A stretch of DNA of 64,000 nucleotides from Octopus sinensis (lineage: Eukaryota): positions 24,676,001 to 24,740,000 of the forward strand of contig NC_043001.1 in NCBI RefSeq assembly GCF_006345805.1, in the 5' to 3' direction. Position numbers and translations under genes: made by a program. The notes beneath the pieces were generated by a model, which was not told where the DNA came from, made no database searches, and was given only the letters and a program-made list of their open reading frames with translations. Shown here piece after piece: positions 19,604 through 19,873 of the stretch (the stretch's first letter is position 1; the number at the start of each line of letters is the position of its first letter).

Positions 19604-19873
19604 CGAAGATGTACTTGCATAGCGAGTGACTTGATCTGAGATCATGTGCTATAACGAAAACAATTGCAGCATGGAAGGTGTTTATAAGCCATTTAAGAAA
19701 CACACAAAATCCGTTAGATTCACTTCAACATTTAAATTTAATTTGTCAAAATATTTTCGTCGCTTTGAGACCGCGACCTGTTCACTGACAAAACTTCGTG
19801 CAGCACGAAGTTTTGTCAGTAAACAGGTCACGGTCTCAAAACGATGAAAATATTTTGACAAATTAAATTTTTA
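19604..19873 (-). mobile_element. PLE-terminus-like element with 68-bp fold-back and target-site duplication
   Basis: Inverted arms 19734-19801/19803-19870. Direct repeat aaatcttatatta at 19591-19603 and 19874-19886. Confidence 0.75.
19742..19792 (-). ncRNA. Type-I hammerhead motif with G3:C8-swapped core
   Basis: Minus strand reads tttgtca|GTGAACA|g gtcgc-ggtctcaaa-gcgac|GAA|AATATT|T|tgacaaa: 7-bp helix I, 5-bp stem II, palindromic helix III. A mutated mirror copy lies on + at 19812-19862. Confidence 0.65.

What the first reader, a model, noticed from the sequence alone, without database searches (positions are those of the whole stretch)
19742..19862. Hammerhead with a reciprocal G3:C8 catalytic-core swap, duplicated in a fold-back
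Seen: core GUGAACA in place of CUGANGA, framed by a perfect 7-bp helix I, a 5-bp stem II abutting GAAA and a palindromic AAUAUU helix III. The inverted copy keeps G3 and C8 but has lost G5. Established: C3 and G8 form a tertiary Watson-Crick pair, and the C3G/G8C double change rescues activity. Natural examples are uncommon, and strict CUGANGA searches miss them. Caveats: the predicted triplet is UUU, which is a poor one, and there is an extra G after A9.
Basis: partly seen in the sequence, partly recalled or inferred. Interest (0 to 1): 0.75.

Follow-up and report, generated by a model that had tools for sequence, protein, structure and literature searches.

The report
Swapped-core hammerhead in Penelope retrotransposon
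This hairpin is two short end-pieces of a very common Penelope-type jumping gene (likely in an octopus) joined head to head, and one piece keeps a hammerhead-ribozyme-shaped motif whose central C-G pair is naturally reversed to G-C in thousands of copies; the motif is predicted, not shown, to cut itself slowly.

Summary
The motif is real and beyond chance. It is not peculiar to this locus. 19601-19873 is a short fold-back insertion with a 13-bp target duplication. It matches the 3' terminal segment of an autonomous Penelope-like element (RT + GIY-YIG, Nematis-type linker). The G3:C8 core is the family norm: 6,823 pattern matches vs 23 control. An older relative keeps G3:C8. A sister PLE (endonuclease 51% identical) has U3:A8 at the same place, with compensatory stem II changes, which points to selection on a hammerhead fold. 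The extra nucleotide, palindromic helix III and inverted copy are described PLE features. Against a function here: the fold-back buries the motif (-102 vs -13 kcal/mol), copies decay neutrally, and copy 5' ends show no peak at the predicted cut. Cleavage is untested. I found G3:C8 in print only as a lab rescue mutant, but could not read Lünse et al. on PLE hammerhead variants. The scan found this before on other DNA (8 notes). Verdict: new core variant of a known ribozyme-retroelement pairing.

The parts
19591..19603 (+). Left target-site duplication (13 bp; overlaps the last 3 bases of the element)
   Evidence: identical 13-mer at 19874-19886
19601..19659 (-). Optional 3' 'tail' (59 nt) of the PLE terminal segment
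   Evidence: family copies end either about 150 or about 210 nt from the 5' end; tail present on the inverted copy only in L178
19601..19801 (-). Long arm: near-complete PLE 3' terminal segment (subfamily A), element sense = minus strand
   Evidence: 92-95% identical to the best other copies; same segment ends the 3' UTR of the RT-GIY-YIG element L178
19742..19792 (-). Intact minimal type I hammerhead motif with G3:C8 core; predicted cut between 19749 and 19748
19779..19785 (-). Core GUGAACA (G3 = 19785, C8 = 19780); extra G at 19778
19750..19755 (-). Palindromic helix III hexamer AAUAUU (predicted dimer interface)
   Evidence: sequence; AAUU in family C and U3:A8 sister, ACAUGU in Neptune-type family
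19802..19802 (.). Apex of the fold-back (junction of the two arms)
   Evidence: apex position varies between copies
19803..19873 (+). Short inverted arm with a decayed copy of the motif (19812-19862; G5>A and three stem II changes)
19874..19886 (+). Right target-site duplication (13 bp)

Best explanation
The locus is a short, fold-back insertion of the 3' terminal segment of a Penelope-like retrotransposon, and that segment carries a minimal type I hammerhead motif whose 3:8 core pair is G:C throughout the family; the motif likely works as a slow, dimer- or protein-assisted self-cleaving RNA in the parent element's transcripts, while this genomic copy is likely inert. Shown: the target duplication, the two 3' ends, the inverted partial copy, the link to an RT + GIY-YIG ORF, family-wide G3:C8, and covariation against sister families. 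Inferred: (1) a promoter in the terminal segment starts a capped RNA just upstream of the motif; (2) the element's protein nicks AT-rich DNA and reverse-transcribes mostly uncut RNA from one of two internal start sites, giving the optional tail; (3) a template switch adds the inverted arm; (4) two motifs on one precursor RNA pair through the AAUAUU palindrome to form helix III and cut after UUU at a low rate, the G3:C8 pair keeping nucleotide 8 in place.
For: 13-bp TSD here; TSDs of about 9-13 bp seen by eye in 7 of 30 loci. L178 has a 793-aa open frame (RT motifs, CxxxCxxC linker, GIY-YIG-type C-terminus), about 1 kb of 3' UTR ending in the same segment, and an inverted 5'-truncated copy with the tail, the layout described in PMC8557442. 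6,823 vs 23 control matches. Older family C keeps the core with N7 = C and a different loop II. Sister PLE: endonuclease 51% identical, over the Pfam GIY-YIG cut-off, U3:A8 motif in its 3' UTR in 26 of 30 loci, while the 85 nt downstream of the motif are only 57% identical to ours (shuffled mean 52%). In a 17-row alignment all of U4 G5 A6 A9 G10.1 C11.1 G12 A13 A14 A15.1 are invariant, 3:8 is G:C in 10 and U:A in 7, and a stem II pair is C:G 8, U:A 7, U:G 2. C3G/G8C partly restores cleavage in a PLE hammerhead, which needed protein and used uncut RNA as template (PMC11167929).
Against: No cleavage data. No Rfam hammerhead hit. Copy 5' ends at the predicted cut (23 of 30 read, of 92 matches, about 70) are no more frequent than at a control site 4 nt downstream (7 of 30, of 341, about 80). 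The 17 alignment rows represent only 4 lineages, were hand-picked, and family C rows were found by the core pattern; the three Neptune-type rows fail to pair at three stem II columns in that alignment. UUU, G3:C8, an all-AU helix III and a G (consensus H) at the inserted position each lower the expected rate. P0001 itself has no Pfam or PDB hit.
Confidence: 0.7

Rival explanations
1. The fold is kept for a non-catalytic role (binding site for the element's protein, or RNA stability); the G3:C8 motif no longer cuts at a meaningful rate.
For: Nearly all copies read include the uncut motif and there is no 5'-end peak at the cut. PMC11167929 found HHR mutants did not affect insertion in vitro; PMC4209133 reports low activity for minimal PLE hammerheads.
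Against: The catalytic residues themselves (G5, A6, A9, G12-A15.1) and a Watson-Crick 3:8 pair are kept between families whose flanks are barely alignable; that pattern is what catalysis requires.
Confidence: 0.22
2. A chance hammerhead look-alike in a foldback/MITE-type repeat.
For: Near-perfect 143-nt hairpin; no Rfam hammerhead hit; non-canonical core.
Against: 0 of 40 shuffled windows with the strict descriptor; copies without any inverted arm exist and the apex varies; the segment ends an RT-endonuclease element; compensatory changes between families.
Confidence: 0.04
3. This copy was co-opted by the host as a self-antisense 'locked' ribozyme or small-RNA hairpin.
For: The fold-back would mask the motif in a read-through transcript.
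Against: The same fold-back is in all 30 best-matching loci; one arm has four transition-type changes and the family decays neutrally; no host gene was identified nearby.
Confidence: 0.04

Closest known systems
Minimal type I hammerheads (min-HHR) in the pLTRs of metazoan Penelope-like elements (Cervera and de la Peña 2014, PMC4209133)
   Same: Unpaired nucleotide between 9 and 10.1, G10.1-C11.1, palindromic 15.2-16.2 region, many solo copies, pairs on opposite strands, a known 3:8 covariant (U3-A8).
   Different: 3:8 pair is G:C (that paper's text reports C:G and U:A only); inserted nucleotide is G where its supplementary consensus has H; longer helix I (7 bp).
Poseidon element of Anolis carolinensis (PAc) and its hammerhead (Frangieh et al. 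2024, PMC11167929)
   Same: Two 3' ends (tail), AT-rich targets, uncut RNA as template; C3G/G8C partly active there as an engineered mutant.
   Different: Here G3:C8 is the natural state; the tail is 59 nt; the protein has a CxxxCxxC linker; no copy running from the tail into an ORF was found.
EN+ PLEs of the Nematis/Neptune type (Craig et al. 2021, PMC8557442)
   Same: Single RT + C-terminal GIY-YIG ORF, CX2-5CxxC linker, inverted 5'-truncated copy, tail on one end, (TA)n bias.
   Different: Tail 59 nt rather than 30-40; motif would be missed by the CUGANGA-based descriptors that paper used; clade not tested by phylogeny.
Non-LTR retrozymes (bioRxiv 10.64898/2026.07.22.740005, part 1 read)
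   Same: Short non-coding, hammerhead-bearing PLE-derived units.
   Different: Copies are dispersed monomers or inverted pairs with TSDs; the three tandem loci read include host flank in the repeat unit.

Membership tests
Minimal type I hammerhead ribozyme | Core U4 G5 A6 A9 G12 A13 A14 and A15.1-U16.1 | tested here: met
Minimal type I hammerhead ribozyme | Watson-Crick pair between 3 and 8 | tested here: met
   G:C here; G:C 10 / U:A 7 of 17 rows
Minimal type I hammerhead ribozyme | Canonical CUGANGA consensus / Rfam hammerhead model match | tested here: not met
   core is GUGAACA; no hammerhead among 18 Rfam hits at E<=10
Minimal type I hammerhead ribozyme | Stem II opening with G10.1-C11.1, helix I closing the motif | tested here: met
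Minimal type I hammerhead ribozyme | Palindromic helix III and NUH site | tested here: met
   AAUAUU and UUU; palindrome kept as AAUU in family C and sister
Minimal type I hammerhead ribozyme | Site-specific self-cleavage | not testable with these tools
   no raw RNA reads offered; no excess of copy 5' ends at the site
EN+ Penelope-like element | Single ORF with RT and C-terminal GIY-YIG linked to the segment | tested here: met
   L178, L180; full-length homologs P0089 and P0115 carry Pfam GIY-YIG/RVT_1 matches; P0001 alone has no Pfam hit
EN+ Penelope-like element | Inverted 5'-truncated copy and optional tail | tested here: met
EN+ Penelope-like element | Direct partial tandem (pLTR-ORF-pLTR) | tested here: inconclusive
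   none among the 10 paired loci fetched; ORF N-terminus not found
Nematis clade | Short CX2-5CxxC linker before GIY-YIG | tested here: met
   by eye against Fig. S2 text of PMC8557442
Nematis clade | RT phylogeny | not tested
   no named reference sequences available to the tools
Non-LTR retrozyme | Head-to-tail tandem units each with a hammerhead | tested here: not met
MITE / foldback DNA transposon | Fixed terminal inverted repeats at both ends of every copy | tested here: not met
   monomers without inverted arm, variable apex and arm length

The most novel reading that the evidence does not exclude
A Penelope-like lineage has propagated through old and young generations with a catalytically active G3:C8 hammerhead, so that one genome carries natural G:C, U:A and C:G cores in PLE-type motifs; the weak core is selected as a throttle so that most RNA stays uncut for reverse transcription, and similar swapped cores explain some PLE families reported to lack hammerheads.
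Probability: 0.3. Interest if true: 0.65.

Novelty: new variant of a known kind. Interest (0 to 1): 0.45.

Why it matters
The C3-G8 tertiary pair was established by structure and by rescue mutants; nature was known to use C:G and U:A. A high-copy family with G:C gives a natural test of that pair and a ready series of sister motifs (G:C vs U:A, all with weak triplets) for asking what PLE hammerheads are for, which is still open. It also shows that CUGANGA-based searches miss thousands of motifs in one genome. The locus itself is an ordinary decaying insertion.

Tried and rejected
Rfam: only miRNA-type hairpin hits below gathering score. Splice-acceptor reading of the fixed 5' end (branch-like CTAAC, pyrimidines, YAG; 557 matches): disfavoured because short copies keep the AG, often gain one G, and have unrelated bases upstream; not excluded. 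Neptune-type PLEs from the GIY-YIG search as parent: no similarity beyond chance. Naiad as parent: the linked ORF has a C-terminal endonuclease; two short motif look-ups in the Naiad supplement gave no relevant match. Tandem loci L061-L063 are local duplications with host flank. Excess of 5' ends at the cut site: not found. Unbiased family C copies (14 loci) show decayed cores, so copy-level conservation is uninformative. Sequencing runs: no RNA holder listed on record, contigs only, so no starts or ends could be read. Continuation of the tail into the ORF: none among 125 tail ends held. Pfam and PDB gave nothing for P0001. Lünse et al. (PLE hammerhead variants, RNA Biol 14:1499) and Przybilski and Hammann 2007 are not held; file 1 of the PMC4209133 supplement was not searched and figures are not held; any of these could report a natural G3:C8.

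Full report
Observation. The minus strand of 19792-19742 reads helix I (7 bp), GUGAACA, an extra G, stem II (5 bp, G10.1-C11.1), GAA, AAUAUU, U, then the 3' strand of helix I. The 51-mer folds into helix I and stem II (z -2.5). A descriptor allowing any Watson-Crick 3:8 pair finds 2 hits in the window against a mean of 0.125 in 40 shuffles; with stem II >= 5 and helix I >= 7 it finds 1 against 0 in 40; the relaxed form hits 2 of 5000 element shuffles. The inverted copy has G5>A and three stem II changes. Rfam's hammerhead models do not match (18 hits listed, none a hammerhead).

The repeat. A DNA search of the 2.72-Gb own genome gave 3,891 candidates, 40 scored, the best at 92-95% identity. 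All 30 loci read share one fixed end at 19601 and a fold-back whose apex and second arm vary. Selecting copies by their 5' end (64 matches, 30 read) shows monomers of about 210 nt without any inverted arm, two preferred 3' ends about 59 nt apart, frequent (TA)n flanks, and 9-13-bp target duplications visible by eye in 7 of 30. The window copy has a 13-bp duplication (19591-19603, 19874-19886). These are marks of target-primed retrotransposition, not of a MITE.

The parent. 557 copies extend upstream of the short 5' end. Of 10 paired loci fetched, L178 holds a 793-aa and L180 a 722-aa open frame. In L178 the frame (P0001: DKSG, SMDVVSLYPS, KGGAIG, YVDD, CxxxCxxC, YIGET) is followed by about 1 kb of 3' UTR that ends in the same segment (subfamily B, different loop II), and is preceded by an inverted, 5'-truncated copy bearing the tail. 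This is the PLE layout in Craig et al. (PMC8557442; passages and supplement part 54 read); the short linker resembles their Nematis rows by eye, no tree was built. P0001 has no Pfam or PDB hit, but 162 homologs were found, the best named Octopus vulgaris, and two homologs carry GIY-YIG or RVT_1 matches. The host is therefore likely an octopus.

The core is a family trait. A G3:C8 pattern matches 6,823 places against 23 for the reversed control (these are arms, not insertions). Loop II differs between subfamilies and N7 varies. A pattern for diverged relatives gave 103 vs 2; 26 of the 30 loci read form an older family C, 79% identical downstream, with N7 = C, a 6-bp stem II, helix I GUGUCA/UGACAC and a shorter palindrome AAUU. 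These were selected by the core; 14 copies selected by a downstream motif show decayed cores, several still recognisably G3:C8. A sister PLE, found through its protein (endonuclease 51% identical to P0001), carries at the same place a U3:A8 motif with extra G, GUUGC/GCAAC stem II, AAUU and the same UUU triplet in 26 of 30 loci, although its downstream 85 nt are only 57% identical to ours (8 of 200 shuffles score as well). A Neptune-type family also has a U3:A8 motif. In a hand-picked 17-row alignment the invariant columns are the catalytic core plus the extra G and U10.2, and 3:8 is G:C in 10 rows and U:A in 7. The rows stand for four lineages, so this is a few independent events, not 17; the tool's shuffles ignore relatedness.

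Results against a function here. In a transcript across the locus the fold-back (-101.9 kcal/mol) far outweighs the hammerhead fold (-13.2), and inverted arms cannot form the tandem dimer. Among 57 arms from 29 loci, core positions differ in 20 of 741 cells and other positions in about 55 of 2,160, i.e. neutral decay; 38 of 57 arms have an intact core. If cut RNA were the template, copy 5' ends should peak at the cut. 92 copies have a non-T just before it and 23 of 30 read are true 5' ends (about 70); at a control site 4 nt downstream 341 match and 7 of 30 are true ends (about 80). There is no peak; five test junctions can also be explained by helix I microhomology. The common 5' end lies about 15-20 nt upstream of helix I; in loci not chosen for that base, G precedes it in 8 of 14 short copies (2 ambiguous) where the long form has C or T, suggesting a copied cap (inference). 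Only assembled contigs of unrecorded type were offered for expression.

Mechanism. Shown: structure of the insertion, link to the ORF, family-wide G3:C8, covariation. Inferred: internal promoter, capped short RNA, two internal RT starts, template switch, slow dimer- or protein-assisted cleavage. Frangieh et al. (PMC11167929, parts 1-2 of 4 read) support this pattern in another PLE: tail from two RT starts, AT-rich targets, protein-assisted HHR, partial rescue by C3G/G8C, uncut RNA as template.

Prior art. Cervera and de la Peña (PMC4209133, parts 1-2 of 4 and supplement passages read) describe minimal PLE hammerheads with an inserted base after A9, palindromic helix III, opposite-strand pairs and a U3-A8 variant. 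Perreault et al. (PMC3088659, passages) report natural U3-A8. G3-C8 appears as an engineered variant in PMC11167929, PMC3884650 and PMC8495972 (passages). Searches for a natural G3:C8 and for octopus PLE hammerheads found none; a 2026 O. vulgaris repeat annotation has no mention of ribozyme or hammerhead in its main text (PMC13282606, passages). Lünse et al. and Przybilski and Hammann were not available, so novelty in print is not settled. The scan's own notes report the same variant 8 times on other DNA, read after my analysis was complete; they are not independent support.

Verdict. Real motif, new core variant of a known ribozyme in a known retroelement class; this copy is an ordinary decaying fold-back insertion; cleavage untested. 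Interest 0.45.

Noticed in passing
window 5780-5830, minus strand: A second hammerhead-like motif with a canonical CUGAUGA core, inserted C, 6-bp stem II and weak 3-bp helix I; 6 genome matches vs 0 control to a tight pattern, three of them sharing flanks. Likely a decayed end of another PLE family.
   Followed up: partly
L220-L249 and L190-L205: Sister PLE family with a U3:A8 minimal hammerhead, also with tail and fold-back copies; with position 8 left free the pattern count rises to 10,358 vs 5 control.
   Followed up: yes
L073, L082, L085-L088, L091, L092: Neptune-type PLE family (ORFs up to about 780 aa) with a U3:A8 motif and ACAUGU palindrome near its 3' end.
   Followed up: partly
L178:5368, 5387, 5407, 5408: A>G differences at 4-26% of contig depth at most of these sites in five small runs (X2, X7, X11, X13, X20) but under 0.2% in X1, X15, X17. 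Would fit A-to-I editing of the fold-back duplexes; run type is only a guess and no matched DNA run was available, so a lead only.
   Followed up: partly
L179, L182-L185: Internally deleted elements of 2-2.6 kb with long inverted 3' UTR arms around an endonuclease remnant: large fold-back derivatives of the same PLE.
   Followed up: no
window 28380-28492, minus strand: 5S rRNA-like sequence above the Rfam gathering score (57.9 bits) with degenerate ends; pseudogene or 5S-derived SINE.
   Followed up: no
window 20668-22449: Young 25-bp tandem array, 71 copies, 95% matches.
   Followed up: no
window 16258-18400, minus strand: Broken LINE remnant (endonuclease-like and RT-like frames recognised by eye) interrupted by a TA-rich microsatellite.
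   Followed up: no
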